Shown: positions 13,536-43,380 of the stretch, piece after piece
Layout: each line of letters starts with the position of its first letter
Numbering within the stretch: position 1 is the first letter of the stretch
Sequence record: PX092659.1
Length of the DNA stretch: 64,000 nucleotides
DNA from: a phage
Reading direction: 5' to 3' (one strand)
Translations under genes and position numbers: made by a program
Notes under the pieces: model-generated
The model's input: the letters and a program-made list of their open reading frames with translations, nothing else
Database searches by the model: none
What the model was told of the DNA's origin: nothing

Positions 13536-13877
13536 TTACGATTCCTTGAGTAAAGAAGAAAGTTCAGCATATACTTTATCTAACTCAAACCCTATGCGAA
13601 GAGATACGTTAGTCCTCCGTTGTTTAAGTAACCACTCGGATATGTTAGGGATACCAGCTAATCTATGTGGTACCACCCTACATAGCTTTTCCGAAGTGTC
13701 ATAAACAGGAACTTTACGTTCTTTTACTGGGAACTTCCTTGTTTCCCATTTCTTATTCTTCACTGTCATATCTCTCCGAGGGATTAAATTCACCAAACAG
13801 CTCTTTAACTCCCCTAAGGTATAGCTGATGGGCTTCTTCCGGGGTATCTCGTCTACCAAAAATATGTTGCTTTCCAT
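13536..13877 (-). CDS. hypothetical protein (uncertain; overlaps HNH gene by about 125 nt)
   Basis: 113-aa track ORF in a different frame from the 3' end of 13753-14283; may start later or be spurious. Confidence 0.3.
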   Translation of the reverse strand: MESNIFLVDEIPRKKPISYTLGELKSCLVNLIPRRDMTVKNKKWETRKFPVKERKVPVYDTSEKLCRVVPHRLAGIPNISEWLLKQRRTNVSLRIGFELDKVYAELSSLLKES

Positions 13878-14283
13878 CGCAGTAAGCGTAGGCCATATAC
13901 CTATTACCTCGTTTTACAACTCCAGTGAATCCGGTAGAATTAGTAGAACACTTCTTATTCTTCCCATTTTCGGAATAGGTAGCCTTACGTAAATTATCCC
14001 ACAAGTTGTTTAAACTATCGCCGTCTTTATGGTCAATAGTTTTACCCCCAGGATCTTCACCTGTCTTTATAAACCAGATTATTCTATGGGCTAAGTAAGC
14101 TGTCCGCTCCCCATTTATCGTAAACTCTAGCTGTCTCCCAGTTTTCATTTTGGAGCCCGCTACCTTTCCCTTCCTTGGGCCAGATAACCAAATTAAGTCC
14201 CCAGTACTTTCGTCATACCTAAGCTTTTCTAGGATAAATGCCATAGGAGGCATTGGTTTATGCATTTTCATTAGTTGCTCCAA
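13753..14283 (-). CDS. HNH homing endonuclease (paralog family)
   Basis: 176 aa; AHRIIWFIKTGEDPGGKTIDHKDGDSLNNLWDNL HNH-like motif. Confidence 0.65.
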   Translation of the reverse strand: MEQLMKMHKPMPPMAFILEKLRYDESTGDLIWLSGPRKGKVAGSKMKTGRQLEFTINGERTAYLAHRIIWFIKTGEDPGGKTIDHKDGDSLNNLWDNLRKATYSENGKNKKCSTNSTGFTGVVKRGNRYMAYAYCDGKQHIFGRRDTPEEAHQLYLRGVKELFGEFNPSERYDSEE

Positions 14284-17044
14284 GTTCGGACAGTACTTCT
14301 TCTGCCATAGCCTTCTCTTCCTCTGTCATGAATTTGAAAGGAATTGGCATACACTCGATTTTACAATAGGTTCTGTACCAGTCTACGATATTCTCCGTGT
14401 TCATATCTTTACCAATACCCATCATACCAAGATACATTCTAGCATATTTTGGGTTAGCACTCTGACCTGTTTTAAGGAAGAAGTCCTTCTTCTTACCTTT
14501 CAGAGCCTCTATGAATGGTTTAATGGTCACATTTGAACACTTCTTAATATCTTCCCAGAACATCTCGTGCATCTTATGGAAGAATGCAGCTCGATCATTC
14601 GGTTTATCTTTGATATATTGTTCAACATGCTCAACTGTTACATCTTTAATAGACTCGAGATGATAATAGCGAACAAGAAGTAGCTTAGCTTCATATGCAT
14701 CCGCATGGCGCGGAGCACAATAATCAGGAGTTGAGTGCAGAATAGCTTTGATTCGCTCCTCTGTGTACTCTTTACCAGCACCTTCAATAGTTCCCCAGCT
14801 TTCACTGAAAATATCAATAGTTGCACCCTGATCAAGCAAGTAATAACGTAAAGTACTAGTATAGTTCCTAGATTCTAATTCCCTGCGACGTGCGTATAAT
14901 TGCTGTGCTAACTCCAGCCAACCTTCATCAATATTATATTGTTCAGAACCTGCGGAGAATCCACTCGTAGATTTATCAATAAAATAATAGATATTTTGAG
15001 CACCACGGTCGCGCCTGATTGCTTGGAAACGCATGTTTGGCGCTTGATTACTAGTTCTAGTAATAACGAATACGTTATCAAAATAGTTGAAGTCAACACC
15101 ACTCGTTACGGATGGACTACATAATAAGCAATCAATTTGTTGATCAATTAGCTCATTAGTTGTGTAATCCAGAATACGTCTAATATCTACATCAGACGTA
15201 GAGTTTGAGTGGATTTCCTTAACTAACGCACCCGTATTACGACGCAACGCCATGCCCTTCTCATTCAGTTCATCTGGCCCACAGTCAGATACTAGGATAG
15301 ATTTCTCACCCATCTCCAGGGAAGTCTGAAGTGCAACCCAAATACTAGACTCATCAGGGAACTCATAAGCATGAGCTTTTGATAGCATTTTACGGTGGTG
15401 ATTGTAAAATGCAACCGGTTTATCAAACTCAATCAAAGAACCATATGCTTCAATTGTTTCTGCACTAATATCCCCATCAGATAATATAATGATTTTTGCA
15501 GTTGCAAGAATATCCCGAAGAACCTGAATACATTCACGACGTTGTTTAACAACCGGGGCGAATAATAGGTCATTCATTACAGCGTCACATTCATCGATAA
15601 AGATTGCATCGATTTGACCAATAAAACTCTTGAACTTATGTAAAGAGTGAATAGTTGTGGACATACGGTCAATAGCGCCACGCTTAAAATTAAGCATATC
15701 TACAGACTTATCATATTGTCCTGCACTAAATTTCTTAGCATTTGAAGATACCAGTGCTCGAGTATTGGTAATTGCTAAGAAATTACCTTTAATAACTCCT
15801 GAATCTAACCAACGAACAACAGCCGTTGTTTTACCCGTGCCTAGGCTTGCTTTTACAAAAGTCATATAGCCTTCTGGTGGTACAGTATTTAATTTCAAGA
15901 AGTTGTCGGTCTCTAGTGAGTTAGTCTCTAGTTTTTTAAGTGGAATACCTTTTAAAACATCAGGTATATCACGTTTAGAATTATTCACAAAGGCTTTTAA
16001 CGCCTGCTTACGACCGTTATTAAAGTAATCTTGAATATTACGACTATTATCTTTAGTTGCAATATACTCAGATAAAGCTGGGCGGATCTCCTTCTCTAGC
16101 CAGCCAAAATCTACACCATCCTCTAGTGCTCGGTGATAGAGTTTAGGAATAATACGTAGATATACACCATCCTCAGCTTCTTCTAACTCGCTGATGGTTT
16201 CTTCTACTTTATCAGAGGCAGCTTTTTTACCCTTAATTTGGTCTAGTAAAGAGTAGAACTCTTCCTTAAACTCACCTCTAGTTGTTTCATAGTCAACTAG
16301 ATTATTAGGTAAATTTACTTTTGAGCCTTTAACAAATACCAGACGTGAAGCACCCTCCGCTTTAAACGGATCTACTATACCATCAGTGAATAAAGGATCT
16401 GCAAAGTAATGGAGCTGTACGGAAGAGTAATAAGCTAAGTCGGCAATATCAAAGCCATACTTTTGTCTACTACTTTCGTTGATAGATGTAAATAAGAATT
16501 TGATTTGACCCTGAGTTACTTTAACATTAGATTCTAGTATTAAGTGCATTCGGATACCTGGTTTTAGCCCAGCCGAAGACGATGCATGAGCGATAAACCC
16601 TGCATCAAGAGGAAACATATCCTCACTAATACTATTTAACATTCTAATAATATGTCGAGCCATGCCAACAAGATCAAACTTGTTACAACCACCTGTATCT
16701 ACAATACCATCCACGTCCATTGCAATTATATGACTTGGGTTAGATACATTAAAGTTGCCCTTCTTACGTCGCACATTATTTTTAGGTGCAAGACATCGAC
16801 CTCGTACCGCAACGATATGAGGGTCAGACGTTAAACGTCTCATAAGAGGAAGCATTTCTACTAGGGTTTGAGGATCAACTTCATCAATTACATCAAACTT
16901 GAAGGGCATTGAAGCTGGTTTACCTTCAGGATGCTTTGAGGAAAATCTTTTAGCAAAAAGATAGTCTTCTGCTTTAACTTCTCGCCAATTGCCTGTGGCT
17001 AAATCGCGATGAAATCCTGCATGACCTTGTAGGATTGAAAACAC
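14258..17044 (-). CDS. large P-loop NTPase, replication-associated (origin-binding / helicase-like)
   Basis: Track ORF starts at TTG 17122; GTG at 17044 preceded by AGGAG is the more likely start. Walker A KASLGTGKTT and Walker B-like IFIDECD. Confidence 0.55.
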   Translation of the reverse strand: MFSILQGHAGFHRDLATGNWREVKAEDYLFAKRFSSKHPEGKPASMPFKFDVIDEVDPQTLVEMLPLMRRLTSDPHIVAVRGRCLAPKNNVRRKKGNFNVSNPSHIIAMDVDGIVDTGGCNKFDLVGMARHIIRMLNSISEDMFPLDAGFIAHASSSAGLKPGIRMHLILESNVKVTQGQIKFLFTSINESSRQKYGFDIADLAYYSSVQLHYFADPLFTDGIVDPFKAEGASRLVFVKGSKVNLPNNLVDYETTRGEFKEEFYSLLDQIKGKKAASDKVEETISELEEAEDGVYLRIIPKLYHRALEDGVDFGWLEKEIRPALSEYIATKDNSRNIQDYFNNGRKQALKAFVNNSKRDIPDVLKGIPLKKLETNSLETDNFLKLNTVPPEGYMTFVKASLGTGKTTAVVRWLDSGVIKGNFLAITNTRALVSSNAKKFSAGQYDKSVDMLNFKRGAIDRMSTTIHSLHKFKSFIGQIDAIFIDECDAVMNDLLFAPVVKQRRECIQVLRDILATAKIIILSDGDISAETIEAYGSLIEFDKPVAFYNHHRKMLSKAHAYEFPDESSIWVALQTSLEMGEKSILVSDCGPDELNEKGMALRRNTGALVKEIHSNSTSDVDIRRILDYTTNELIDQQIDCLLCSPSVTSGVDFNYFDNVFVITRTSNQAPNMRFQAIRRDRGAQNIYYFIDKSTSGFSAGSEQYNIDEGWLELAQQLYARRRELESRNYTSTLRYYLLDQGATIDIFSESWGTIEGAGKEYTEERIKAILHSTPDYCAPRHADAYEAKLLLVRYYHLESIKDVTVEHVEQYIKDKPNDRAAFFHKMHEMFWEDIKKCSNVTIKPFIEALKGKKKDFFLKTGQSANPKYARMYLGMMGIGKDMNTENIVDWYRTYCKIECMPIPFKFMTEEEKAMAEEVLSELGATNENA

Positions 17045-17643
17045 AACAATACTCCTGTGTTGGAAATGGAATAAGTTTTCTTTAGGACTATTCAGAAAGA
17101 ATAGAACAACTGTTACTGTCAATTTCTCAACAAATTAATTGCAAATACTGAAGTGGGGTGGCAACTTCCACTTTCACGCTGCGCTGCTGCCTCATTATAC
17201 CGCACAAATCCTTGAGGATGGCCGCTAAGCCAGATTTGCTCACCTAATGCTTCATATACTAGCTCATACTAGATGCAATATAACTTACAGAATCACGTCT
17301 CGGTAGTTTTTCACTCCTCCCATCTCACTTCACAACCACCTCATACTAGGTTGCTTCGAGGCCTTACCAGGGTTCCTATGGGACGCAGATCGCTAAGTAT
17401 TCTATTAACTATTTGCTTAAAAACTAACACGTAACAGTTAAAACAACCCTTAATGGGGCAGCCTAACTGTTCCGTATCGCGGATTGTAAACAAGAAAAAA
17501 CTTTTTCGTAAAGCTCTAGCAACGTACCTTATGCAGCTATTTACGGGTCATCGATTCCTCTCGCCGTAAATCTCTTGTCAGCTTCACTAAGAAAAATTAG
17601 TAAAAGATCAATTTTTACTAATGTCTCTCAATTCAATATAAAT

Positions 17644-17672
17644 ATTATAGCAAGATTTTGAGCATCATGCAA
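17644..17672 (-). promoter_or_regulatory. sigma70-type early promoter (minus): TTGCAT-N17-TATAAT
   Basis: Reverse complement gives TTGCAT, 17 nt, TATAAT; would start a roughly 600-nt untranslated leader before CDS 14258-17044. Confidence 0.55.
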
Positions 17673-17707
17673 GTAGATTTTTAAAGAGAATGCTATCAGT
17701 GTCTTTG

Positions 17708-17740
17708 AGCACAGAGAAAACCGAGCCAAAATGACTCGGT
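17708..17740 (-). terminator. rho-independent terminator (minus strand)
   Basis: Stem ACCGAG / CTCGGT followed on the minus strand by TTTTCTCTGTG; directly downstream of CDS 17749-17943. Confidence 0.6.
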
Positions 17741-17748
17741 TATACGGA

Positions 17749-17943
17749 TTAATCATAAAAAAGACCACGAATAGTATTAGCAAATTTAAGTATAATAGCG
17801 CGGTTTGAGCTACTTAACTTTTTAATATCGAAAGTGGGATCAGTCAAATATCTCGCCATAAATTTTACTTGTTTAGCTGAAAGTTGACCCTTATTCCACT
17901 TTTTAATTTTACCATAACATACCCAATATTCTTTATTCATCAT
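17749..17943 (-). CDS. hypothetical protein
   Basis: 64-aa track ORF. Confidence 0.4.
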   Translation of the reverse strand: MMNKEYWVCYGKIKKWNKGQLSAKQVKFMARYLTDPTFDIKKLSSSNRAIILKFANTIRGLFYD

Positions 17944-18325
17944 TTAGTCCCGGAACATAGATCCCAACACGATTTAATTGTTCTTTAGCTTCTTTGAGAA
18001 TATCTGGAGTGTACTCCCAAATATCATCTTCCACCTGTAAAAGATGTGGCGAACAACCGTCATCAGGCACACGACATATGGCCAAACCACGTGGATGGAA
18101 CAAAGAGAAATTTAGGGCAACAATCAAGCCCATAGCAGACAATTCATTCCAATCCAATTCCCATTCCCTGGCATATCCAGACAGGAAAATGCCAATGCAT
18201 GGATCATCTATTTGCTGCTCCGGAAAAGTGAAGGAGGCTTGTCTTACCCCCAACCAACGTTGTAGCAGCTTCTCCGCACGCTTCACCAAACTAGGATCAA
18301 TCTGACGCCAGTATACTTGTTCCAT
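17933..18325 (-). CDS. hypothetical protein (paralog of 18335-18763)
   Basis: 130 aa; shares motifs with the neighbour (PCIGI.L, W.ELD.N/EL..MGL..ALN..LF.P, C-terminal GIYVPGL). Confidence 0.5.
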   Translation of the reverse strand: MEQVYWRQIDPSLVKRAEKLLQRWLGVRQASFTFPEQQIDDPCIGIFLSGYAREWELDWNELSAMGLIVALNFSLFHPRGLAICRVPDDGCSPHLLQVEDDIWEYTPDILKEAKEQLNRVGIYVPGLNDE

Positions 18326-22858: not shown

Positions 22859-23708
22859 TGATTATTTCCTCGATAAACTTTATAGCTACTTTTGGTTCAA
22901 TATTGAAGAATTCCGTAGCGCCATCAAAATCTTTGTAATGGCAATTCTGTTCTTTAAAGTAGTTATGAGCTAATTTTTCGATTCGAACTGCACTACTATA
23001 TTCGCCAATTTCAAATACTTTAAGTATTTCCAAATCAATAAGGTGGCCACTAGATTTAATATGTAGAAGCCTACGCTCTGGATTGTTAGACCTACCTATT
23101 TTAACTCCATGTGTGGGGCTATGCATAACATATATCTTAGTACTTTCTAAATCTCTATAGCTACAGTAAGGACAACCGTTCCCTCTTAATACAGATCCTG
23201 GAGTAGCTCCCCACCTATGCCCTGCGCCACAGAGAAAGGTAGTCTTAGTATTCGCATTAACATATTCACCTACTATTCTGATATTTCTGGCAGTAAGACG
23301 ATCATTTATAACACTAATACTAAGTTTCTGCTTATTAATAGCACAAGACGGACAGCCACTCCCCCTATTAATTATGCTATTAAGCGTAGTAGTCCACTCA
23401 TGACCACAAATACACCTAAATTTAGTGTTTATATCAACACTATTTTTATATCCCCCCAACAATGTAATACCTCTGTCCTGTAATACAGAACTAATTTTAT
23501 CAATATCTAGTTTACGGCTATTAGTAGAGCAAGTAGGACAATTGGTCTTTCCATTCCTAATAGCGTCAAATTTAGCTGTCCATTGATGGCCATATTCACA
23601 CTGATACGTATGCCTATACCTAGAATTTTGATACGGCTTATCCACCATAGTAAAACCACGCTCGGCTAGGCATTTATCTACTTCTTCTTGGGTTAATTTT
23701 TTCGGCAT
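22845..23708 (-). CDS. Zn-ribbon repeat protein with C-terminal T5orf172-like (GIY-YIG superfamily) domain
   Basis: Track ORF runs to 23765 but overlaps the promoter; ATG at 23708 (MPKKLTQEEV) with GGAGAAGAG upstream is the likelier start. Repeated CxxC units, then IYVMHSPTHGVKIGRSNNPERRLLHIK. Confidence 0.55.
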   Translation of the reverse strand: MPKKLTQEEVDKCLAERGFTMVDKPYQNSRYRHTYQCEYGHQWTAKFDAIRNGKTNCPTCSTNSRKLDIDKISSVLQDRGITLLGGYKNSVDINTKFRCICGHEWTTTLNSIINRGSGCPSCAINKQKLSISVINDRLTARNIRIVGEYVNANTKTTFLCGAGHRWGATPGSVLRGNGCPYCSYRDLESTKIYVMHSPTHGVKIGRSNNPERRLLHIKSSGHLIDLEILKVFEIGEYSSAVRIEKLAHNYFKEQNCHYKDFDGATEFFNIEPKVAIKFIEEIINDRE

Positions 23709-23736
23709 TACTCTTCTCCATAGAATTTTTACATTT

Positions 23737-23765
23737 ATTATACTAAACATTATCCACCATGTCAA
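23737..23765 (-). promoter_or_regulatory. sigma70 promoter (minus): TTGACA-N17-TATAAT, leftward arm of divergent region
   Basis: Reverse complement gives TTGACA tggtggataatgtttag TATAAT. Confidence 0.6.
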
Positions 23766-23902
23766 TTAAAATTTTCTTTCGCCATCTAATACTGTAATAT
23801 TTCGCGTATAAATAGTTGAGTATCTAGTATCACACATCCCACGTTAAAAGCAAGCAAATTTTTTATTTAAATGCAATATCATAGGCTTATTTAAAATTGT
23901 AG

Positions 23903-23931
23903 TTGCTTTTTACTGTATATATTGGTATAAT
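23903..23931 (+). promoter_or_regulatory. sigma70-type early promoter (plus): TTGCTT-N17-TATAAT, rightward arm of divergent region
   Basis: TTGCTT, 17 nt, TATAAT; upstream of phoH. Confidence 0.6.
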
Positions 23932-24004
23932 ATATTTGTAAGTTGATAAACAAGATCTTTTTGTTGATCCTCTGTTAGCGAAGTACACTATAGGAGTGTT
24001 ATTT

Positions 24005-36277: not shown

Positions 36278-37046
36278 ATATTCATAAATTAGGGAACAGC
36301 GAGCCGATTACGCTGAACTTGTCTTAATGTAAGATGCGTCGAGCACTAAGATTCGTTGAATAGAGTCGGTGGGTTAGTTGTAAAACTAGTACACAGGGGG
36401 CGGCAATCCCGGTTAGTGGCTAGAACGTGTAAAATGAGGCGTCTGAAACCTCTCCCCTAAACTCTTCTCTAATTTATAAATAGTGGGGTGTGGAAATCAC
36501 TTATGTAGTAGCACTGCCGTCCTAGTATAATTGGTATTATCAAGCCGTAACTGGTGGAAGATGTAGGTTCGAATCTTACGGTCGGTAAGAACTGGATAAC
36601 TGATGCTTTTAACGTAAAAGCTTCCGAGGTTAGTTGCGCACTGCCTAAACCACGCGGTAGTTGGTTCCAGGCTAACCAACCAGTCTGCTGAATAGTTTTA
36701 TTACGATTTAACTATGTCCAGACTAAAGAAGAACTTTAGAAGGTATTCTAGGATAGTGAAGTTCTTTCTCCATATCGGAGTAGTTTTTCAAGCTATCCAC
36801 AAAGTGGGAAATGCTGACATGAGAGATGTCACTAATGGTGCACAATAGCACAGGTAATTCGCGATAACTCCTGTTGAGTAGCAGCAAAAGGCGGGAAGTC
36901 ATGACCCCAAGCCTAACCGAGTCCTCAATATACCGCAGGACATAACCACTAAGTCACCCTGACTTAAACTGGAAAATAATAGACGTTACTGTATTTTGTC
37001 TTGAAATACTTAATGAGTGAGACTTATGACTCTCCCGGTATCGTCT

Positions 37047-37084
37047 GTATTTTTAAGAGTTTTTACGAGAGTTCTTAAAAATAC
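37047..37084 (+). repeat. perfect 12-bp inverted repeat (GTATTTTTAAGA ... TCTTAAAAATAC) with 14-nt loop
   Basis: Read directly from sequence; sits 5 nt upstream of tRNA-Arg. Confidence 0.7.
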
Positions 37085-37089
37085 TTAAA

Positions 37090-37164
37090 CGGGGTGTAGT
37101 CTAAGGGAGAGGCAGGAGTCTTCTAAATTCCTTTATGCAGGTTCGAATCCTGTCACCTCGGCCA
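37090..37164 (+). tRNA. tRNA-Arg (anticodon TCT)
   Basis: Manual cloverleaf: acceptor CGGGGTG/CACCTCG, anticodon loop CTTCTAA, T-arm GCAGG-TTCGAAT-CCTGT, CCA encoded. Confidence 0.7.
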
Positions 37165-37198
37165 ATTTTATTAACTGTAACTAAAACAAAGGAAATAT

Positions 37199-38146
37199 AT
37201 GTTTAATACTAAAAATATGAAAGAACTGACTTCTGAGCAGAAAGTAATTCGTACTATTAAACGTTGGGGTATTGGTGCTGTAGTTGGTTTAGCAGGCTTG
37301 ATTCTAGCCTTTAATTCATATACTATTGTTTCTGATGGTACGGTTAAAACTCAAACATTTCTGGGTAAAGTAGATCCTAACCCAGTATTACCAGGTTTCC
37401 ATCTTGTAAACCCCTTTGCATCTTTCGACACTTTTAGTACAAAAGATATTGCTGTAAAATTAGATAAACTTCAAGTTCCTAGTCAGGATAAATTTAAATC
37501 CACTGTTGACCTGACTGTTATGTTGCAGTTTGATGGTTCTAAGGCACCGATTAACCGTATTAATGCGGGTACTCAGGATCAAGCGTTAGACAAATATGTA
37601 ACTGAAAAATTACTGTCTACTATTCGTGAGTTTGGTAAGTCTGTACCTAAAGCACAAGATTTGTTTGATGCTAAAATTCAGGCTCAATTGCAAACTGCAA
37701 TTCAACAGGAAGTTGAAGAGTATGCACGCCCATATGGTTATACAGTTAAGCAGGTATTCCTTCAGGATATTACTTTGCCACCGGTAATCATGGAACAGGT
37801 ACAGAATACCAAAGTTCGTGAAGAACAGGTTAATGCTGCTAAAGCTGAATTAGCTCGTGTTGAACAGGAAGCACAGCAAAAAGTTAAACAAGCAGAAGCA
37901 GATCGCGAAGCTCGTAATAACCAAGCTATTGCCAATGAGCGTGACGCAGATGCCAAACTGTACGCAGCTAAGAAAGAAGCTGAAGCTAACGCCGCGTTGC
38001 AACGTACCATTACTCCTGAGATGATTCGCTGGAAGCAACTGGAAGTTGAAATGATTCGTGCTCAGAAATACCAAGGTGGTGTACCGCAGACTGTGGTTGG
38101 CACTGGCTATGATGGCCAAATGATTATGGATATGCGTAATAAATAA
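37199..38146 (+). CDS. SPFH/band-7 (prohibitin/HflC-like) membrane protein
   Basis: 315 aa; N-terminal TM helix (IGAVVGLAGLILAF), SPFH-like core, C-terminal Ala/Glu/Gln-rich coiled coil. Confidence 0.7.
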   Translation: MFNTKNMKELTSEQKVIRTIKRWGIGAVVGLAGLILAFNSYTIVSDGTVKTQTFLGKVDPNPVLPGFHLVNPFASFDTFSTKDIAVKLDKLQVPSQDKFKSTVDLTVMLQFDGSKAPINRINAGTQDQALDKYVTEKLLSTIREFGKSVPKAQDLFDAKIQAQLQTAIQQEVEEYARPYGYTVKQVFLQDITLPPVIMEQVQNTKVREEQVNAAKAELARVEQEAQQKVKQAEADREARNNQAIANERDADAKLYAAKKEAEANAALQRTITPEMIRWKQLEVEMIRAQKYQGGVPQTVVGTGYDGQMIMDMRNK

Positions 38147-38170
38147 TACCCGCATGTAACATCTGAAATA

Positions 38171-38205
38171 AGCCCTGCGTTTCCTGGAGAGCGCAGGGCT
38201 TTTCT
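38171..38205 (+). terminator. rho-independent terminator
   Basis: AGCCCTGCG ... CGCAGGGCT stem followed by TTTTCTG. Confidence 0.75.
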
Positions 38206-38221
38206 GTATTTAAGATAAAAG

Positions 38222-38256
38222 AAAAGCCCCTAAGTCTTTCGACTAGGGGCTTTATT
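38222..38256. terminator. bidirectional rho-independent terminator
   Basis: GCCCCTAAGTC tttc GACTAGGGGC with T-runs on both strands; ends the plus-strand SPFH unit and the minus-strand pair 38471-39901. Confidence 0.7.
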
Positions 38257-38470
38257 GTTTGGTTCTTTAGAACCATATACTCTTGTTACAGCAACCACCC
38301 ATACGGGAGGCCAATCTTGACTGAAAATCTACTCTAGGGGGCAGGATAAGAGTAGGCTTAAAGGCAAACGGATTGAACGCCGGTATTTGTGTAAACATTG
38401 CTGGAGAGCAACAACGTGCTACAGGCATTGGGCAGCACGAAATAGATTTTCTGCAACACATAATTTCTCC

Positions 38471-38887
38471 TTAGGAGTTATTACCACCATTTTGAGCTTT
38501 TGCAACTTGGCTTTGGCAGAAGCTATTAAACTTACCCATAAGTGATACAAGCTGTTTCCCATCCTCTGTCTTTGCGAAGTCTTCGAAAAGGGCTAGTACT
38601 GCCTGTCCTTCCGCAGAAACCTGCGGTTGTTGGGTTTGTTGCTGAACTTGCTGCTGAGGCACCTGTTGCTGCATTTGTTGAGGCATTTGCGACTGCCCGC
38701 TCATTTGCTGCATCATTTGCATAGGACTCACACTTCCAGGGTTTTGCTGGAGTTGTTGCTGCATCTGTTGCGCTTCTGCTAAACGCTGTTGCAATTGTTG
38801 TAAGTAGGGGTTATCCAGACCCGGAATGGGCTGCTGGGAGCCCATACTTTGATTAAGTCCGTTATTTACAAAACCATATTTACTCAT
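38471..38887 (-). CDS. hypothetical Gln-rich low-complexity protein
   Basis: 138 aa; about 35 percent Gln (QQLQQRLAEAQQMQQQLQQ...); part of the inverted two-gene module. Confidence 0.5.
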   Translation of the reverse strand: MSKYGFVNNGLNQSMGSQQPIPGLDNPYLQQLQQRLAEAQQMQQQLQQNPGSVSPMQMMQQMSGQSQMPQQMQQQVPQQQVQQQTQQPQVSAEGQAVLALFEDFAKTEDGKQLVSLMGKFNSFCQSQVAKAQNGGNNS

Positions 38888-38908
38888 AATGGGCTCCTCC
38901 CCTTAATA

Positions 38909-39901
38909 TTAAGCCGGCAGTTTAGCCTGCAGACCAGCCAGAGTCTGAGTGATAGCACCAAGACTTACAGCGATTTGATTAATTACCTGACCGTTAGCAC
39001 CGTTACCCGCAGCGATTGCTTCACGTAGGCGACATGCATCTAACTCATCCTGAATACGAGCAGTAGTTACACCAGCGATAGCAGTCTGAAGTTCACAGCA
39101 ACATTCAGCGATCTGACGTTCCAGAGAGTTCTGGTTAGCACACATCTGAGCCTGAACAGCGGCAAACTGGTTATTAGTTTGTAAAGTCTGCTGGAAAGCG
39201 ATCTGTGCAGAATCAAACTTATCTTGTGCACGAGCTATCTGATTAGCTGCGAAAGATTGATCAATCTGGCGAGAAAGATCGAACTGACCCTGAATAACGT
39301 TGCGAGTTTCCTGACAGATCTGATTAGACAGATTAGCACCTGTACCATAGATCGTAGTTAGTACAGACTGAGTATCACGGCTCTGGTTTTGGGATGTCTG
39401 GCTAAACCCATTGTTAACTGCGCTTAAAACAGCTCCAGTACCCTGGTTAGCTTCTGTACGAGTAGTGTTAATAGCTGCTAGAATACTAGCGGTATCTTGG
39501 TTCTGAAGTACTGCATCAACTGCGGTACCATCACCAACTACACCACGTCCACCGAATCCACCGAAACCACCGAATCCGCCTGTTAATAGAGCACCGATTA
39601 GGATAGCTCCGAATAGTCCCATACCTTCACCACCGAAAGCACCTGCGTTTGCTGGGTAACCACCCAGTAGGCCAGGGAAGCCACTAGTAAATACGTTTAC
39701 TGGTTCTTGCATTTTATGTTTTCCATATTTATGACAATGTTCATCGTCATCTTCTTCATCATCGTGTTCACGATGTTTTTCTTCGTAGGCTCTGACCTTC
39801 TCCCACTTTTTCTTATCTGATTCCTCGTGACGGTGCAGTTCTGCTGCAACGCTAGCGACGGTCTCAGGACTCTTAGCTACTTCTTCTGTCATTTTTGACA
39901 C
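38909..39901 (-). CDS. hypothetical membrane protein with glycine-zipper TM segment and Gln/Asn/Cys-rich C-terminal domain
   Basis: 330 aa; acidic/His-rich N-terminus, Gly-zipper TM (GLFGAILIGALLTGGFGGFGGFGG), Q/N/T-rich C-terminal half with Cys clusters (AECCCELQ); AGGAGGTG RBS. Confidence 0.55.
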   Translation of the reverse strand: MSKMTEEVAKSPETVASVAAELHRHEESDKKKWEKVRAYEEKHREHDDEEDDDEHCHKYGKHKMQEPVNVFTSGFPGLLGGYPANAGAFGGEGMGLFGAILIGALLTGGFGGFGGFGGRGVVGDGTAVDAVLQNQDTASILAAINTTRTEANQGTGAVLSAVNNGFSQTSQNQSRDTQSVLTTIYGTGANLSNQICQETRNVIQGQFDLSRQIDQSFAANQIARAQDKFDSAQIAFQQTLQTNNQFAAVQAQMCANQNSLERQIAECCCELQTAIAGVTTARIQDELDACRLREAIAAGNGANGQVINQIAVSLGAITQTLAGLQAKLPA

Positions 39902-39952
39902 CTCCTAGTATATAGAAAATGTGTGTCTCTTTGATCACTCATCCATAACATA

Positions 39953-39981
39953 TACTTTACACTACCCCAGCGAAAATGTCA
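39953..39981 (-). promoter_or_regulatory. second promoter class (minus): TTGACATTTTCGC-type
   Basis: Reverse complement reads TTGACA ttttcgctggggtagtg TAAAGT; shares the 13-nt TTGACATTTTCGC with 9576-9604. Confidence 0.55.
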
Positions 39982-40098
39982 AGGGGTCTTTAAAAATTGC
40001 CCCTGAATTTTTAGTGGGGTCACAAATTTTGGTCCTCACCATTTATCTGCTATCCTTAAGTGCCCTATGATTTTCCTCTAAAAAGTTAAAAAATTTGA

Positions 40099-40127
40099 TT
40101 GCTTGAATGCTAAATTCTCTGTATAAT
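40099..40127 (+). promoter_or_regulatory. sigma70-type early promoter: TTGCTT-N17-TATAAT
   Basis: Cassette match. Confidence 0.6.
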
Positions 40128-40157
40128 ATATCTATAAATTTGAAAGAGGAACCAAAT

Positions 40158-40676
40158 ATGAATGTTGATGAGCTAACACAGCACCTCTTATCTAGAGGAT
40201 TTGATACAGATAAATATCATTGCTGGTTAAGTCCGGAAGGATGGCTAACAGTCCCGTTGTATGACTTCTCTGGGATGTTGAGGGGCTATCAAACTTATAA
40301 TCCTTCTGCTCCAAAAGGTCATGGTAAGTGCCCCTTTGAAGCTAAATACTTTACTTATTCTACTACCCAGTGTGTATGGGGACTAGAAACTCTCAATGGA
40401 GATGAAAAAGTAGTATTGATTGCTGAATCTGTATTTAAGGCAGTTGCGTTACATAATGCTGGTTATCCAGCCCTAGCAATGTTGGGTTCTTCTCCAGGAA
40501 AAGCGTTATTAAAGCAACTGAAATTACTACCTTTTAAATTGGTAGCTGTCGGAGATAATGATCCTGCGGGTGAAAAATTTGCTAGAAAATTAAACGGCTT
40601 TGTTTCTCCCGTAGATGTGGATGAGATGTCTACCGAAAACTTGAAAAATTTTCTTGCTATGAAGCTAAATTTCTAA
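40158..40676 (+). CDS. small TOPRIM-domain-like protein
   Basis: ATG 40158 after GAAAGAGGAAC RBS (track ORF extends to 40107); TOPRIM-like Glu (LIAESVFK) and DxD (AVGDNDPAG). Confidence 0.45.
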   Translation: MNVDELTQHLLSRGFDTDKYHCWLSPEGWLTVPLYDFSGMLRGYQTYNPSAPKGHGKCPFEAKYFTYSTTQCVWGLETLNGDEKVVLIAESVFKAVALHNAGYPALAMLGSSPGKALLKQLKLLPFKLVAVGDNDPAGEKFARKLNGFVSPVDVDEMSTENLKNFLAMKLNF

Positions 40677-40682
40677 TATAAT
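40654..40682 (+). promoter_or_regulatory. sigma70-type early promoter: TTGCTA-N17-TATAAT (inside 3' end of previous ORF)
   Basis: Cassette match; would drive the tRNA-Ser/tRNA-Met pair. Confidence 0.55.
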
Positions 40683-40697
40683 ATATCTTATAAATTC

Positions 40698-40786
40698 GGA
40701 AGAATAGCATAACGGTATTGCAGCAGATTGCTAATCTGTCGGCTTGAAATATAGCCTTGTGGGTTCGATTCCCACTTCTTCCGCCA
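40698..40786 (+). tRNA. tRNA-Ser (anticodon GCT), class II
   Basis: Acceptor GGAAGAA/TTCTTCC, anticodon loop TTGCTAA, long variable arm, T-arm GTGGG-TTCGATT-CCCAC, G73-CCA. Confidence 0.75.
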
Positions 40787-40792
40787 AACATA

Positions 40793-40867
40793 GGGTCGGT
40801 AGCTTAAAGTTAAAGCGGTGGCCTCATAAGCTAACGAGTAGGAGTTAGATTCTCCTCCGACCCACCA
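40793..40867 (+). tRNA. tRNA with CAT anticodon (Met, fMet or Ile2 type)
   Basis: Perfect acceptor GGGTCGG/CCGACCC, D-stem GCTT/AAGC, anticodon loop CTCATAA, T-arm AGGAG-TTAGATT-CTCCT. Confidence 0.7.
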
Positions 40868-40881
40868 ATTAGGTACTGCGT

Positions 40882-41283
40882 ATGGAAAAGGTTGAATTTG
40901 AGTACTTTGGAGTTATTTTAATTGTACACTTAAATGGTACAATAGAAACTAAAGATAGAATAATAACACAACGAAATCAATATGGCGAGTATACTAGAAC
41001 TATAAAAGGAAAGGTACTGTCTCCACGTTGCAATGGTAAATCTGGGTATTTTCAGGTGAAGATTTGCAATAAGGGATTAGGTAAAAATGAGTATGTGCAC
41101 AGACTCGTATGGATGGCTTTCAACGGTGAAATACCGGAAGGCTATGAAATAGAGCACAAAGATGATGATAAGTCTAATAATGCTTTACCTAACCTAGAAT
41201 TATTCACAAGAAAGCAGAATATGGACAAAGTCTTAAATAAGATGACTAGAGATTCTCTAGGTCGTTTTGAAAAACTTAACTAG
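40882..41283 (+). CDS. HNH homing endonuclease (divergent copy) inside tRNA cluster
   Basis: 133 aa; HRLVWMAFNGEIPEGYEIEHKDDDKSNNALPNLELFTRKQN. Confidence 0.6.
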   Translation: MEKVEFEYFGVILIVHLNGTIETKDRIITQRNQYGEYTRTIKGKVLSPRCNGKSGYFQVKICNKGLGKNEYVHRLVWMAFNGEIPEGYEIEHKDDDKSNNALPNLELFTRKQNMDKVLNKMTRDSLGRFEKLN

Positions 41284-41291
41284 GAGACTAT

Positions 41292-41477
41292 ATGTCTAAG
41301 TTTCAAGAACTCAAGCAAGAGCTAGAAGAATGTGCCTGCCCTGAGTGTAGAGGAATTGGTGAAAGTTCTGATGCAGAAGCAGGAGATACTTTTTGCAATA
41401 TCTGGGTTTGCCCAACTTGCAATGGTACAGGTATTAATCCTAACTGCGGTATTTCCCTAGATATTGAGCGAGGATAA
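41292..41477 (+). CDS. hypothetical small Cys-rich protein (two CxxC pairs)
   Basis: 61 aa; CACPECRG ... CPTCNG. Confidence 0.45.
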   Translation: MSKFQELKQELEECACPECRGIGESSDAEAGDTFCNIWVCPTCNGTGINPNCGISLDIERG

Positions 41478-41578
41478 TACCTGTGAAACTAAAAGATTAT
41501 TATATTGGTTGGTTTGTGGGACTAGTAGTAGTATTTTCACTAGGCTATAATATGTATCAACTAATAAACTGATTACAT

Positions 41579-41655
41579 GGGGGTGTAATCGAATTGGCAT
41601 AGGTACTGGACTTAAAATTCAGGTTTTGTGGGTTCGAATCCCACCACCCCTACCA
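41579..41655 (+). tRNA. tRNA with TAA anticodon (Leu-type anticodon) but short variable arm
   Basis: Acceptor GGGGGTG/CACCCCT, anticodon stem CTGGA/TTCAG with loop CTTAAAA, 5-nt variable region, T-arm GTGGG-TTCGAAT-CCCAC, A73-CCA. Confidence 0.6.
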
Positions 41656-41830
41656 AATTAAGGAAATAAGATGTATAGACATCCACCTCCGCCAACACGT
41701 CGTTCCAGAGAAGTTATCCTCATGGAGTTGACTAAAAACTTCAAGGCAACTCTTGAAGATAGAGATTTAGGCACGGATGAAGACATTGATTTTATTTGTA
41801 GACTATTAAAGATGAAACTGGAGAAACAAC

Positions 41831-42037
41831 ATGGCTAATCCTGAAATTACCGCACAACGTTTCATGCTTAAAGGCATGATTGCTGAAGCAGGTATGACTC
41901 AAGAGGTTGCAGACTTTCATAAGCAATTTCTTGATATTATAACTCTAGCTAAAGAGACTGGAGAAAAAGAACACGGAGCAGCAATTATGGCTATATCTCT
42001 TATTAGTCTAGACTTGGCTGAAGAATCTGGAGTTTAG
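41831..42037 (+). CDS. hypothetical protein
   Basis: 68-aa track ORF; a 56-aa ORF at about 41671-41841 precedes it. Confidence 0.45.
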   Translation: MANPEITAQRFMLKGMIAEAGMTQEVADFHKQFLDIITLAKETGEKEHGAAIMAISLISLDLAEESGV

Positions 42038-42067
42038 CTCCTCCAAACAGAATTTTTAAAAATGTAC

Positions 42068-42097
42068 TTGCCTTTTGCTTTAAATTTCTGATATAAT
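42068..42097 (+). promoter_or_regulatory. sigma70-type promoter (TTGCCT-N18-TATAAT)
   Basis: Cassette-like with 18-nt spacer. Confidence 0.45.
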
Positions 42098-42127
42098 AGT
42101 TATATAAATTGATGAAGGAGTTAACGA

Positions 42128-42403
42128 ATGCAAAATCGTGTTATAGCAGCTGGTATTGAAAGTGCAATCTGTAAATCCTGGGAAGGCTGGGAAGGTGAGA
42201 TTGAATGGCTTTATTTCTATGATGTAGAACTTCTGCCGGAAGTTAAAGCTAAATGTGTTGAAGCTGGCATGGCTCCAGATGCAAAAGCTGATATTGATAT
42301 TTCAATGTCTGAACTTAAAGGTCGTGTAATTACTGTTAGTGATGAGGGCGAAGAAGTCTTCGAACTTCCATTCTCCTTAATTGTCACTCCTAAGTTCGAC
42401 TAA
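42128..42403 (+). CDS. hypothetical protein
   Basis: 91-aa track ORF after GAAGGAG RBS. Confidence 0.5.
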   Translation: MQNRVIAAGIESAICKSWEGWEGEIEWLYFYDVELLPEVKAKCVEAGMAPDAKADIDISMSELKGRVITVSDEGEEVFELPFSLIVTPKFD

Positions 42404-42439
42404 CTAATACAGCACTGAGCAAGTTCTTTAAAATTTGAC

Positions 42440-42468
42440 TTGCTCAGTGCTATAAAACTTGATATAAT
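42440..42468 (+). promoter_or_regulatory. sigma70-type early promoter: TTGCTC-N17-TATAAT
   Basis: Cassette match; drives the RNA-only unit 42496-42938. Confidence 0.55.
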
Positions 42469-42495
42469 AGTTATCTAATTTGGAAAGTTCTTTTT

Positions 42496-42589
42496 AAGGT
42501 AGTTCCTACTTTAGTAGAGTAAATTTTTGGCAGATGGCCCCACCATTTTACCGATAACTCCTAGTCAGTGCGGCAACACTGGCTACCTT
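42496..42589 (+). ncRNA. candidate tRNA-sized structured RNA (non-canonical, no consensus T-loop)
   Basis: Terminal 7-bp helix AAGGTAG/CTACCTT encloses three hairpins (CTAC-ttta-GTAG; ATGG-cccca-CCAT; CAGTG-cggcaa-CACTG); lies between promoter and tRNA-Tyr. Confidence 0.3.
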
Positions 42590-42600
42590 AAAGAGAATTT

Positions 42601-42687
42601 GGGCGTTTATTCCGTAAGTGGTAGCGGAGGGGATTGTAAATCCCTGGTCATTGCGACTCGAGTGGTTCGACTCCATTAACGCCCACC
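42601..42687 (+). tRNA. tRNA-Tyr (anticodon GTA), class II
   Basis: Acceptor GGGCGTT/AACGCCC, anticodon loop TTGTAAA, long variable arm, A73-CCA. Confidence 0.75.
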
Positions 42688-42695
42688 AAATTTAA

Positions 42696-42772
42696 GTCCT
42701 GTTAGACAAACGGGTAAAGTCACTACCCTTTCAAGGTAGGATTTGCGGGTTCGATCCCCGCACAGGACGCCA
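42696..42772 (+). tRNA. tRNA-Glu (anticodon TTC)
   Basis: Acceptor GTCCTGT/ACAGGAC, anticodon stem CTACC/GGTAG with loop CTTTCAA, T-arm GCGGG-TTCGATC-CCCGC. Confidence 0.8.
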
Positions 42773-42780
42773 ATTTCTGC

Positions 42781-42857
42781 ATTCCTAGAGTGTTACTGGA
42801 CAGCATGTCGGTCTCCAAAACCGTACGGTCTAGGTTCGAGTCCTAGTAGGTTTGCCA
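42781..42857 (+). tRNA. tRNA-Trp (anticodon CCA), two U-U mismatches in acceptor stem
   Basis: Anticodon loop CTCCAAA on stem CGGT/ACCG; T-arm CTAGG-TTCGAGT-CCTAG; acceptor ATTCCTA/TAGGTTT pairs at 5 of 7 positions. Confidence 0.55.
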
Positions 42858-42863
42858 AAATTT

Positions 42864-42938
42864 GCACCTTTAGCTGAGATGGATTAGCGCTTGCCTGAAG
42901 AGCTTGAGAGGTTCGTTCGATACGAACAGGGTGCACCA
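42864..42938 (+). tRNA. tRNA-Phe (anticodon GAA)
   Basis: Acceptor GCACCTT/AGGGTGC, D-stem GCTG/TAGC, anticodon loop CTGAAGA, T-arm GTTCG-TTCGATA-CGAAC. Confidence 0.65.
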
Positions 42939-42955
42939 AATTGAAGGAGCTGCTG

Positions 42956-43228
42956 ATGCATCCTGAAAACTTCTTTATTTACTGCGCGGATAAGTCGCTG
43001 AAACGTAGAATTAACAAAGTCTATCATTATCGTGCTAGTCAACAGCCTTATGTATATGCTTTTGACGGTGATCACATTCCACTAGAACAATTATCTTGTG
43101 ATTACATGATATTGAAGAACTTTGACGAGACGAAGATCTCAAGCGTTCATAATCGACAGAATCCCTTAACGTGGAAATATAAGAAGAAAAAGAAAGGCAT
43201 CAAATTCTTAAAAAATGTAGTTGCTTAG
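42956..43228 (+). CDS. hypothetical protein
   Basis: ATG 42956 after GAAGGAG (track ORF starts at TTG 42941). Confidence 0.45.
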   Translation: MHPENFFIYCADKSLKRRINKVYHYRASQQPYVYAFDGDHIPLEQLSCDYMILKNFDETKISSVHNRQNPLTWKYKKKKKGIKFLKNVVA

Positions 43229-43373: not shown

Positions 43374-43380
43374 AATTTTA

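What the first reader, a model, noticed from the sequence alone, without database searches (positions are those of the whole stretch)
17045..17643. 600-nt untranslated leader / candidate origin next to the large replication NTPase gene
The nearest promoter for the 929-aa P-loop gene lies at 17644-17672, leaving about 600 nt with only tiny unsupported ORFs. The region contains short direct repeats (ATACTAG three times at about 17256, 17268, 17343; TCATACTAG twice) and GC-rich hairpins. Adjacency to a putative origin-binding or helicase-type protein makes a replication origin or regulatory RNA plausible.
Basis: partly seen in the sequence, partly recalled or inferred. Interest (0 to 1): 0.5.

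Follow-up and report, generated by a model that had tools for sequence, protein, structure and literature searches.

The report
Structured leader RNA before T5 D2 helicase
The 600 bases ahead of this T5-like phage's D2 replication helicase gene are not empty spacer or a repeat-type origin: they are transcribed into a long, intricately folded leader RNA whose shape is kept across hundreds of related phages, and no RNA database or paper I could search describes it.

Summary
The window is a T5-like phage (Epseptimavirus). The flagged region, 17045-17643, lies on the minus strand. It sits between a T5-type early promoter (-35 at 17671-17666, -10 at 17648-17643) and the GTG start (17044) of the homologue of T5 D2, a characterised bipolar SF2 helicase annotated "origin binding protein". 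In detail: about 590 nt with no conserved ORF and no internal terminator.

Across T5-like phages the leader folds the same way:
- a 5' hairpin;
- a near-invariant core;
- a long-range helix of 24-38 bp closing a domain of about 250-290 nt;
- an inner helix;
- a hairpin with an invariant CU-UAGC-GG loop;
- two 3' hairpins.

In 25 distinct leaders, 33 of 94 predicted pairs show compensatory changes. Between the two main alleles all 24 changed pairs stay paired, while 47% of unpaired columns differ. 17.6% of pairs are G-U, so the structure belongs to the D2-sense strand. No lineage matches Rfam.

The ATACTAG repeats are real but not conserved, and there are no iterons, DnaA boxes or local GC-skew turn. 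An origin is therefore unsupported, though an RNA-primed one is not excluded.

Best reading: a new structured leader RNA controlling D2 expression. The mechanism is inferred.

The parts
17719..17741 (-). Intrinsic terminator hairpin ending the upstream early operon
   Evidence: 10-bp stem followed by a T run. Conserved with compensatory changes in distant lineages. Annotated as a terminator in T5.
17643..17671 (-). T5-type early sigma-70 promoter: -35 TTGCAT 17671-17666, 17-nt spacer, -10 TATAAT 17648-17643. The inferred start is near 17636.
   Evidence: sequence. (the -10/downstream block recurs at other promoter-like sites in the window). (the homologous T5 site is annotated as an early promoter). 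(conserved in all lineages). The start site is inferred, not mapped.
17589..17629 (-). P1, the 5'-terminal hairpin: GAGAGAC-AUUAGUAAAA / UUUUACUAAU-UUUUCUU
   Evidence: The hairpin is present with different sequences in lineages C, D and E.
17500..17596 (-). 97-nt accessory stem-loop module, an optional insertion flanked by a UUUUUCUU repeat
   Evidence: Absent from most relatives. Found in 51 records, always at this site. It folds as a self-contained Y-shaped domain. Its boundaries are ambiguous by about 4 nt because of the flanking repeat.
17441..17497 (-). Near-invariant core, including the small hairpin GGAACAGU-UAG-GCUGCC at 17473-17455
   Evidence: About 100% identical between alleles A and B. 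GAUACGGAACAGUUNGGCUGCCCCAU is kept in lineage C, and a diverged version (CAUACAGAACAGUCCGGCUGCUACAU) is kept in D. An exact-pattern scan finds it only in T5-like contigs.
17407..17440 (-). P3 5' strand: the long-range closing helix, pairing with 17107-17140
   Evidence: helices 5-7, 8 pairs with changes on both sides. (32 bp in this window; helices of 24-38 bp enclosing 249-291 nt in 8 of 9 lineage representatives, with unrelated sequences).
17383..17393 (-). P4 5' strand, GCGAUCUGCGU, pairing with 17176-17184
   Evidence: helix 8: 6 of 9 pairs changed on both sides, 100% of cells paired.
17240..17382 (-). Variable interior of the central domain, with allele-specific sub-hairpins.
   Evidence: Less than 50% identity between alleles, and no shared fold could be resolved.
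17204..17239 (-). P6 motif hairpin: outer helix, 3' internal loop, and inner helix GGCU/GGCC capped by the invariant CU-UAGC-GG (17229-17222)
   Evidence: GCTTAGCGGC, or CTTAGCGG in two further loci seen later, is present in every enteric T5-like locus. (hairpin in 8 lineages with covarying stems, including inner-helix variants GACU/GGUC and GCCU/GGGU). (helices 11-12). (covariance-model hits).
17176..17184 (-). P4 3' strand, GCGCAGCGU
17151..17173 (-). P7 hairpin: AAGUGG / CCACUU with loop AAGUUGCCACC
   Evidence: One search shows compensatory variants: AGGGG/CCCCU, AUAUGA/UCAUAU and GUAUGA/UCAUAC. The loop motif GUUGCCA is shared by lineages A and C, and D carries GUGACCA at the same place.
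17107..17140 (-). P3 3' strand
17084..17104 (-). P8 hairpin CUAUUC-UUUCU-GAAUAG (17104-17088), followed by UCCU (17087-17084), which is complementary to the Shine-Dalgarno sequence
   Evidence: helices 14-15. Sequence-invariant in alleles A and B. The UCCU:AGGA pairing is a prediction with little covariation behind it.
17042..17056 (-). Translation initiation region of D2: AGGAG 17056-17052, GUG 17044-17042
   Evidence: Same start as the D2 ORF cloned in PMC3632103.
14258..17044 (-). D2 helicase gene (928 aa), annotated in relatives as 'replication origin binding protein'
   Evidence: Biochemistry in PMC3632103.

Best explanation
The region is the DNA for a long 5' leader of the D2 helicase mRNA: about 590 nt here and about 490 nt in T5 and most relatives. 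Host RNA polymerase transcribes it from a T5-type early promoter.

The RNA folds into a defined architecture:
- a 5'-terminal hairpin (P1);
- an almost invariant core segment;
- a long-range duplex of about 30 bp (P3) that closes a domain of about 265 nt;
- inside that domain, a second closing helix (P4), a variable interior, and a hairpin whose loop CU-UAGC-GG never changes (P6);
- then two hairpins (P7, P8) and the D2 ribosome-binding site.

Shown: the folded shape is under selection on the D2-sense strand across T5-like phages of enteric bacteria.

Inferred: it acts in cis, after transcription, to set how much D2 helicase is made and when. The invariant loops would serve as binding sites for a protein or as tertiary contacts. 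P1 would protect the 5' end. The 30-bp duplex is a plausible RNase III processing site that separates the 5' part from the D2 message.
For: - Position and continuity. The promoter, the lack of an internal terminator, the lack of a conserved ORF and the D2 start place the region inside the D2 transcript.
- Covariation. In 25 distinct leaders, RNAalifold predicts 94 pairs, 33 of them with changes on both sides. 96.9% of cells are paired, against 37-52% when partners are slid by 1-3 columns. 173 compensated cells compare with 12-24 in the slid controls, and 0 of 500 shuffles reach the observed covariation score.
- Allele comparison. Between alleles A and B, all 24 changed pairs stay paired (15 double, 9 via G-U) while 47% of unpaired columns differ. 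Flanking genes are 96-97% identical, but the central domain is only 39-50% identical.
- Independent folds. Single-sequence folds of 9 lineage representatives give a 24-38 bp long-range helix enclosing 249-291 nt around the motif hairpin in 8 of 9, with unrelated helix sequences.
- Motif. The hairpin has an invariant loop and covarying stems in 8 lineages.
- Negative control. Three coding stretches of D2 from the same genomes give 6-14 double-change pairs and 32-35 cells, against 33 pairs and 173 cells for the leader.
- Strand. 17.6% of paired cells are G-U. The sense alignment folds to -54.5 kcal/mol and the antisense to -39.2.
- Wider pattern. An ORF-poor gap of about 290 to about 1100 nt precedes D2 homologues even in distant Vibrio phages.
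Against: - The regulatory role is not demonstrated.
- Predicted accessibility of the D2 initiation region is ordinary: rank 30 of 47 genes in the window, mean unpaired probability 0.2-0.57 across lineages, with no consistent pairing partner.
- The predicted pairing between the core and the start codon has almost no covariation and low ensemble probability.
- Compensatory changes derive from a few deep lineages, so the number of independent events is small. The structure was also predicted from the same alignment on which it was scored.
- The interior of the central domain could not be aligned into one fold.
- In the Klebsiella-phage lineage D the long helix is only weakly predicted: duplex -30.2 kcal/mol against shuffles at -23 +/- 4.
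- No transcript mapping for this locus was found.
- Single-sequence stability is not exceptional (z = -1.2).
Confidence: 0.6

Rival explanations
1. The product that matters is a stable non-coding RNA, not the mRNA leader. The domain of about 265-330 nt closed by the 30-bp helix is cut out, for example by RNase III as 16S and 23S rRNA are cut from their processing stems. It then works in trans, as an RNA-protein particle or a decoy, while D2 simply shares the promoter.
For: - The closing helix is 24-38 bp long and the enclosed size is nearly constant (249-291 nt) in 8 of 9 lineages.
- Invariant hairpin loops sit inside an otherwise fast-evolving domain.
- The central domain is exchanged as a module between phages that are otherwise 97% identical.
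- The initiation region of D2 is not notably occluded, so a purely translational role is not evident.
Against: - There is no evidence for processing or for a stable fragment.
- No match to any Rfam family, including the large phage-associated RNAs.
- The element is always directly upstream of D2 and in the same orientation, as expected for a cis element.
- The segments flanking the domain (core and 3' block) are the most conserved parts.
Confidence: 0.2
2. The region is, or contains, a T5 replication origin. In the version that fits the data best, the structured transcript stays hybridised to the template as an R-loop and is processed into a primer. That would resemble ColE1 RNA II or the T4 oriF/oriG transcripts, with D2 helicase loaded next to its own gene.
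For: - A strong promoter drives a structured untranslated RNA of about 500-600 nt, the size and style of ColE1 RNA II (the comparison is from general knowledge).
- The T5 equivalent lies at 48.4-48.9% of the genome, and T5 origins were placed near the centre by electron microscopy (10.1101/866236).
- D2 was proposed as an initiator helicase (PMC3632103).
- The RNA has a modest G excess, skew 0.10-0.19 against 0.06-0.11 in the D2 coding sequence.
Against: - No iterons, tandem repeats or DnaA boxes, and the ATACTAG repeats are not conserved.
- No antisense promoter was found.
- The GC-skew turn is at about 24 kb, at the coding-strand switch, not here.
- The only AT-rich stretch is the promoter plus P1.
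- The 'origin binding' name rests on helicase-motif similarity only.
Confidence: 0.12
3. The gap is a non-functional mosaic junction: leftover sequence between two transcription units, with folds that any 600-nt RNA would show.
For: - Single-sequence stability is unremarkable, z = -1.2 for sense and -1.8 for antisense.
- The centre is highly divergent and recombinogenic.
- An optional 97-nt insertion is tolerated.
Against: - All 24 changed pairs between alleles stay paired, against 47% change in unpaired columns.
- Slid and shuffled controls are far below the observed values, as is the coding control.
- The domain size and the long helix are conserved with unrelated sequences.
- The 8-10-nt loop is invariant, and the flanks are about 100% conserved and better kept than the adjacent coding sequence.
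Confidence: 0.04

Closest known systems
Long structured 5' leaders with RNase III stems: lambda N leader, T7 early mRNA R-sites, E. coli pnp, rnc and adhE leaders
   Same: A sigma-70 transcript with a long untranslated 5' region. A duplex of 20 bp or more lies upstream of the regulated gene. A phage early or replication-related gene lies downstream. A 5' hairpin is present.
   Different: No sequence or Rfam relationship. This leader is much larger, and its duplex closes a multi-helix domain of about 265 nt rather than forming a simple hairpin. RNase III cleavage is not shown. No NUT-like or known operator sequence is present.
ColE1 RNA II primer and T4 oriF/oriG R-loop origins
   Same: A structured, untranslated RNA of about 500-600 nt from a strong host-type promoter, placed next to replication functions. 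[quoted passage not shown]
   Different: No antisense RNA I-like promoter. No evidence for a persistent RNA-DNA hybrid or a DNA start site. The transcript continues into a 2.8-kb coding gene. Recombitron data argue against a dominant mid-genome origin.
Large structured non-coding RNAs often carried by phages (ROOL, GOLLD, HEARO, raiA, OLE)
   Same: Several hundred nucleotides, many helices supported by covariation, few invariant nucleotides, phage-borne, function unknown at discovery.
   Different: Tested and no match. This RNA is tied to one gene as its 5' leader and is confined to T5-like phages.
Iteron or DnaA-box replication origins next to initiator genes (lambda ori in O, P1 oriR, plasmid rep-iteron modules, HSV oriS bound by UL9)
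   Same: Adjacent to a gene named as an origin-binding helicase, and non-coding.
   Different: No conserved direct repeats, no DnaA boxes, and no AT-rich unwinding element apart from the promoter. The conservation acts on base pairing within one strand.

Membership tests
Any Rfam 15 family (riboswitches, ribozymes, leaders, large ncRNAs) | Covariance-model score at or above the family's gathering threshold | tested here: not met
   (whole window: tRNAs only). (region at E<=10: best hit is MicF at 33.7 bits against 79 needed, lying over the terminator). (five other lineages: no hit at E<=1).
Structured cis-acting 5' leader of an mRNA | Lies between the promoter and the start codon of the same transcript, with no terminator or gene in between | tested here: met
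   plus T5 annotation. The transcription start is inferred from the promoter, not mapped.
Structured cis-acting 5' leader of an mRNA | Secondary structure conserved through compensatory substitutions | tested here: met
Structured cis-acting 5' leader of an mRNA | The structure controls the ribosome-binding site, a terminator or mRNA stability | tested here: inconclusive
   Initiation-region accessibility is ordinary and its pairing partners are inconsistent. The anti-SD UCCU and core:start pairings are predicted but barely covary. Stability effects are not testable here.
RNase III processing stem | About two turns (20 bp or more) of nearly continuous duplex RNA | tested here: met
   32 bp here, 24-38 bp in 8 of 9 lineages. 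Weak in lineage D.
RNase III processing stem | Cleavage in vivo or in vitro, dependent on rnc | not testable with these tools
   Needs Northern blots or 5'/3' end mapping in rnc+ and rnc- hosts.
ColE1-type RNA-primed origin | Promoter about 500-600 nt upstream that makes a structured pre-primer RNA | tested here: met
   This is a resemblance only.
ColE1-type RNA-primed origin | Antisense regulator RNA promoter within the 5' part of the pre-primer | tested here: not met
   no promoter-like site on the plus strand in 16800-18100.
ColE1-type RNA-primed origin | Persistent RNA-DNA hybrid, RNase H cut and a DNA start site | not testable with these tools
   The G skew of the RNA is only modest. Needs DRIP or nascent-strand mapping.
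Iteron / DnaA-box duplex origin | Three or more conserved direct repeats (iterons) or clustered DnaA boxes | tested here: not met
   ATACTAG occurs three times but is not conserved among relatives.
Iteron / DnaA-box duplex origin | Local turn of cumulative GC skew | tested here: not met
   the minimum is at about 23-24 kb, at the coding-strand switch.
Protein-coding gene missed by annotation | An ORF kept open, with coding-type substitutions, in relatives | tested here: not met
   no ORF of 25 aa or more is shared by alleles A, B and C. Indels are not multiples of three.

The most novel reading that the evidence does not exclude
The domain of about 265 nt closed by the 30-bp helix is a new class of large structured phage RNA with a job of its own in starting T5 DNA replication. 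After processing it would act as the primer, or as the loading platform for D2 helicase at a mid-genome origin: a ColE1 RNA II-like mechanism in a virulent phage. The invariant CUUAGCGG and core loops would be the recognition sites.
Probability: 0.1. Interest if true: 0.85.

Novelty: new member of a known kind. Interest (0 to 1): 0.6.

Why it matters
T5 is a classical model phage, yet how its replication starts and how its replication genes are controlled remain open. The D2 helicase is a proposed initiator (PMC3632103).

A large RNA of 490-590 nt, supported by covariation, sits directly in front of D2 in more than 500 sequenced phages, many of them biocontrol candidates. I found it neither in any record annotation I read nor in Rfam. 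That gives a concrete and cheap experimental handle: reporter fusions, rnc hosts, probing and pull-downs on one invariant 8-nt loop.

It also adds a candidate to the short list of large structured RNAs carried by phages. And it shows that the "origin-binding" label has drawn attention to a DNA reading of a region whose constraint acts on RNA.

Tried and rejected
- **Hidden small gene.** ORFs of 25 aa or more in the leader are allele-specific, lack ATG or SD, and are broken by non-triplet indels.
- **Iterons, tandem repeats, DnaA boxes.** None found. ATACTAG is not enriched window-wide and not conserved.
- **Internal promoter closer to D2.** The only scanner hit, TTTACG/TACAAT at 17512-17483, spans the optional insertion junction and is absent from most relatives. 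TTGACA at 17122 has no -10.
- **Riboswitch-like alternative hairpin.** ACGGAACAGUUA...UAACUGUUACGU (17475-17429) competes with P3. In the B allele the compensatory change keeps P3 and breaks this hairpin.
- **Strong occlusion of the D2 ribosome-binding site.** Accessibility is ordinary and the partners are inconsistent.
- **Pseudoknot partner for the CUUAGCGG loop.** No complementary segment sits at a conserved place.
- **P1 as an attenuating terminator.** The stem is AU-rich, the U run is part of the stem, and the feature is not kept in lineage E.
- **Other copies in the window or host.** Only the promoter -10 block recurs in the window. E. coli genomes give no match. Metagenome and viral scans find only T5-like contigs.
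- **Extending the family to distant relatives.** Covariance model R1 recovers lineages A, C and C2 strongly and D at E = 0.013. It does not recover lineage E or the Vibrio phages. Vibrio groups were either too similar or too divergent for covariation.
- **One shared fold for the domain interior.** Not resolved.
- **N-terminal half of D2 against solved structures.** Nothing useful.
- **Bourguignon et al. 1976 origin-mapping paper.** Not held in the library.

Full report
**What the window is.** The 1-kb stretch around the finding is 98.9% identical to Salmonella phage EH1 (Epseptimavirus, Demerecviridae) and matches 528 phage records, all T5-like. Genes in the first ~24 kb of the window are on the minus strand, so the finding must be read on that strand.

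**The neighbouring gene.**
- The large ORF starts at GTG 17044, behind AGGAG at 17056-17052. It ends at 14258 and encodes 928 aa.
- It is the homologue of T5.108, also called D2. Databases name it "replication origin binding protein" because its helicase core resembles herpesvirus UL9; the Pfam hit covers only residues 394-533.
- D2 has been purified and shown to be a bipolar SF2 helicase. The ORF cloned in that work starts with the same GTG-TTT-TC[T/A]-ATC-CT (PMC3632103).

**Checking the observation.** Reading the minus strand from the upstream gene (a 64-aa ORF ending near 17749), the order is as follows.
- An intrinsic terminator hairpin at 17741-17719.
- A promoter: TTGCAT, 17 nt, TATAAT at 17671-17643.
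- About 590 nt with no terminator-like site and only short ORFs.

Support for the promoter:
- The generic scanner missed it because the -35 matches TTGACA at 3 of 6 positions.
- Its -10 and downstream block recurs at several other promoter-like places in the window.
- The homologous T5 site is annotated as an early promoter preceded by a terminator in two independent T5 records.
- It is the best-conserved block in alignments that reach relatives with only 65% D2 identity.

The repeats:
- ATACTAG is present three times, at 17256, 17266 and 17343. Over the whole window the word is not enriched: 19 found against 12.8 expected.
- There are no tandem repeats.

**Comparative data.** I collected the D2 upstream region from these sources:
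- 33 IMG/VR contigs;
- 20 more distant IMG/VR contigs;
- several GenBank phages;
- 8 metagenome contigs.

Three things stand out.
- *A long ORF-poor gap precedes D2 throughout the family.* It is about 490-600 nt in enteric T5-like phages, about 770 nt in a Proteus-type lineage, and about 290 to about 1100 nt in Vibrio phages whose D2 is only 33-46% identical.
- *Conservation is patchy.* Between the window's allele (A) and the T5 allele (B), the upstream genes, the promoter and the first ~110 nt of the leader are 93-97% identical. The last ~90 nt are nearly identical too. The central ~300 nt are only 39-50% identical, although their length differs by only about 3 nt. The centre is thus an old, exchangeable module, and one phage (L031) carries a B-type centre with an A-type 3' segment.
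- *A few islands never change.* GCTTAGCGGC is in every one of the first 37 enteric T5-like loci fetched; two lineages found later carry only CTTAGCGG. The core GAUACGGAACAGUUNGGCUGCCCCAU is kept in lineages A, B and C and, in diverged form, in D.

**The structure.** RNAalifold on 25 distinct leaders (alleles A, B and C) predicts 94 pairs, 33 of them with compensatory double changes. With that structure:
- 96.9% of cells are standard pairs, against 37-52% when the 3' partners are slid by 1-3 columns.
- 173 cells carry double changes, against 12-24 in the slid versions.
- None of 500 shuffles reaches the observed covariation score.

The well-supported elements, in window coordinates, are:

| Element | Coordinates |
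|---|---|
| P1, 5' hairpin | 17629-17613 / 17605-17589 |
| Core hairpin | 17473-17455 |
| P3, long-range helix | 17440-17407 / 17140-17107 |
| P4 | 17393-17383 / 17184-17176 |
| P6, motif hairpin | 17239-17204, loop CU-UAGC-GG at 17229-17222 |
| P7 | 17173-17168 / 17156-17151 |
| P8 | 17104-17099 / 17093-17088 |

Further tests:
- Between alleles A and B, 24 of the 94 pairs differ and all 24 remain paired (15 by double change, 9 through G-U). Meanwhile 47% of unpaired columns differ.
- Compensatory events also occur within alleles, for example AUAGAAUC/GGUUCUAU against CAGAAUC/GGUUCUG in P6, and AUAUGA/UCAUAU against GUAUGA/UCAUAC in P7.
- As a negative control, the same procedure on three 510-nt coding stretches of D2 from the same genomes gives 6-14 double-change pairs and 32-35 cells.
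- Independent minimum-energy folds of nine lineage representatives give the most telling result. Eight predict a long-range helix of 24-38 bp enclosing 249-291 nt (mostly 266-268) around the motif hairpin. The helix sequences are unrelated: UAACUGUUACGUG..., GAUUAUUAUACAG..., UAUCUCUAACCACAU..., UUGUCUCCGAUGACU.... In the Klebsiella-phage lineage a comparable helix is only weakly supported.
- The P6 hairpin is present in eight lineages with different outer stems. Its inner helix varies compensatorily (GGCU/GGCC, GACU/GGUC, GCCU/GGGU) around the unchanged loop.

**RNA or DNA.** 17.6% of all paired cells are G-U, which would be A-C mismatches on the other strand. The sense alignment folds to -54.5 kcal/mol and the antisense to -39.2. 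The structured strand is also the one the promoter transcribes. The constraint is therefore on a single-stranded molecule of D2 polarity, most simply the RNA. Single-sequence stability is not informative: z = -1.2 for sense and -1.8 for antisense.

**The window's own peculiarity.** Between P1 and the core, the window carries a 97-nt module (about 17596-17500) that most relatives lack.
- It is found in 51 records, always at this site.
- It is flanked by a UUUUUCUU repeat.
- It folds on its own.
- It behaves like an expansion segment of a structured RNA.

**Is it something known?**
- No Rfam family matches the region in this window or in five other lineages, even at permissive thresholds.
- No tRNA or tmRNA lies in the region.
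- E. coli genomes hold nothing similar.
- Exact-pattern scans of viral and metagenome collections find the core and motif only in T5-like contigs.
- Full-text searches found no paper describing a structured RNA or leader at this locus.
- T5 annotations list only "promoter" and "terminator".
- Some GenBank records place tiny hypothetical ORFs in the leader or mis-set the D2 start.

**What it does.** This part is inference. The position, the absence of a terminator and the strict linkage to D2 argue for a cis-acting leader.

I tested the obvious mechanism, occlusion of the ribosome-binding site, and it is not convincing.
- The D2 initiation region has ordinary predicted accessibility, rank 30 of 47 genes.
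- Its predicted partners differ between lineages.
- The predicted pairing of the core with the start codon, and of UCCU with the Shine-Dalgarno sequence, hardly covaries.

What the architecture does offer:
- a 5' hairpin of the kind that protects mRNAs;
- a duplex of about 30 bp that meets the length requirement of RNase III;
- two invariant loops suited to protein recognition or tertiary contacts.

My best account is a leader that sets D2 helicase output through processing, stability or protein binding. A processed trans-acting RNA is the main rival.

**The origin idea.**
- *Against a duplex-DNA origin:* no iterons, no DnaA boxes, no conserved repeats, and no local GC-skew turn. The turn at about 24 kb coincides with the switch of coding strand.
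- *For some link to replication:* the T5 equivalent lies at 48.4-48.9% of the genome, and T5 origins were reported near the centre (10.1101/866236). A structured RNA of 500-600 nt from a strong promoter recalls the ColE1 RNA II pre-primer.
- *Against that link:* no antisense promoter, only a modest G excess, and recombitron strand bias indicating mostly unidirectional replication from one end (PMC10055335).
- I give an origin function about 0.12.

**Verdict.** This is a real, conserved and so far undescribed structured RNA element: the leader of the T5-family D2 helicase mRNA. The element is a new family within a known kind (long structured phage mRNA leaders). Its mechanism is still to be shown.

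Noticed in passing
window 58399-58430 (+); also 7952, 9195, 60607 (+) and 35394 (-): CTTAGCGG occurs 6 times in the window against 1.09 expected; 0 of 100 shuffles reach 6. One copy is the loop of an intrinsic terminator hairpin, AAGCCUGAUC-UUAGCG-GAUCAGGCUU-UUAUUUU, ahead of another early promoter. In three relatives that loop reads UUAGCU and the stem covaries, so the match to the leader's invariant loop is probably chance.
   Followed up: partly
window 17500-17596 (-): An optional 97-nt stem-loop module inside the leader. It is present in only 51 of about 528 related phage records, always at the same site, and is flanked by a UUUUUCUU repeat. It occurs with both A-type and B-type central domains.
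   Followed up: partly
window 17749-17943 (-): A 64-aa gene (phrog_29527, unknown function) sits between the DUF7415 gene and the terminator. T5 has no gene at this place; its terminator follows T5.107 directly.
   Followed up: no
L001 (OR413342), L003 (PP836394), L004 (MH631454): Public annotations of this locus disagree. EH1 starts obp 132 nt too far downstream. Sw2 extends it 126 nt into the leader. PP836394 annotates three ORFs of 28-39 aa inside the leader.
   Followed up: yes
window about 23000-24000: Cumulative GC skew reaches its minimum where the coding strand switches from minus to plus, a divergent intergenic region near 23.8-24.0 kb. The skew here tracks the direction of transcription.
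   Followed up: no
L031 (IMGVR_UViG_2706796320), leader columns 475-490 of alignment A2: This phage has a T5-type (B) central domain but the A-type version of the segment just upstream of the ribosome-binding site. That indicates recombination inside the leader.
   Followed up: no
window 17713-17800 (-): A weak Rfam hit to MicF (33.7 bits against a gathering score of 79, E = 0.0064). It overlies the end of the 64-aa gene and the terminator hairpin. I regard it as not significant.
   Followed up: no
window 36516-49147 (+): A cluster of 24 tRNA genes, as expected for a T5-like phage.
   Followed up: no
window 13753-14283 (-): An ORF overlapping the 3' end of D2 by a few codons. It corresponds to the HNH homing endonuclease (hegI) annotated downstream of D2 in T5 and relatives.
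   Followed up: no
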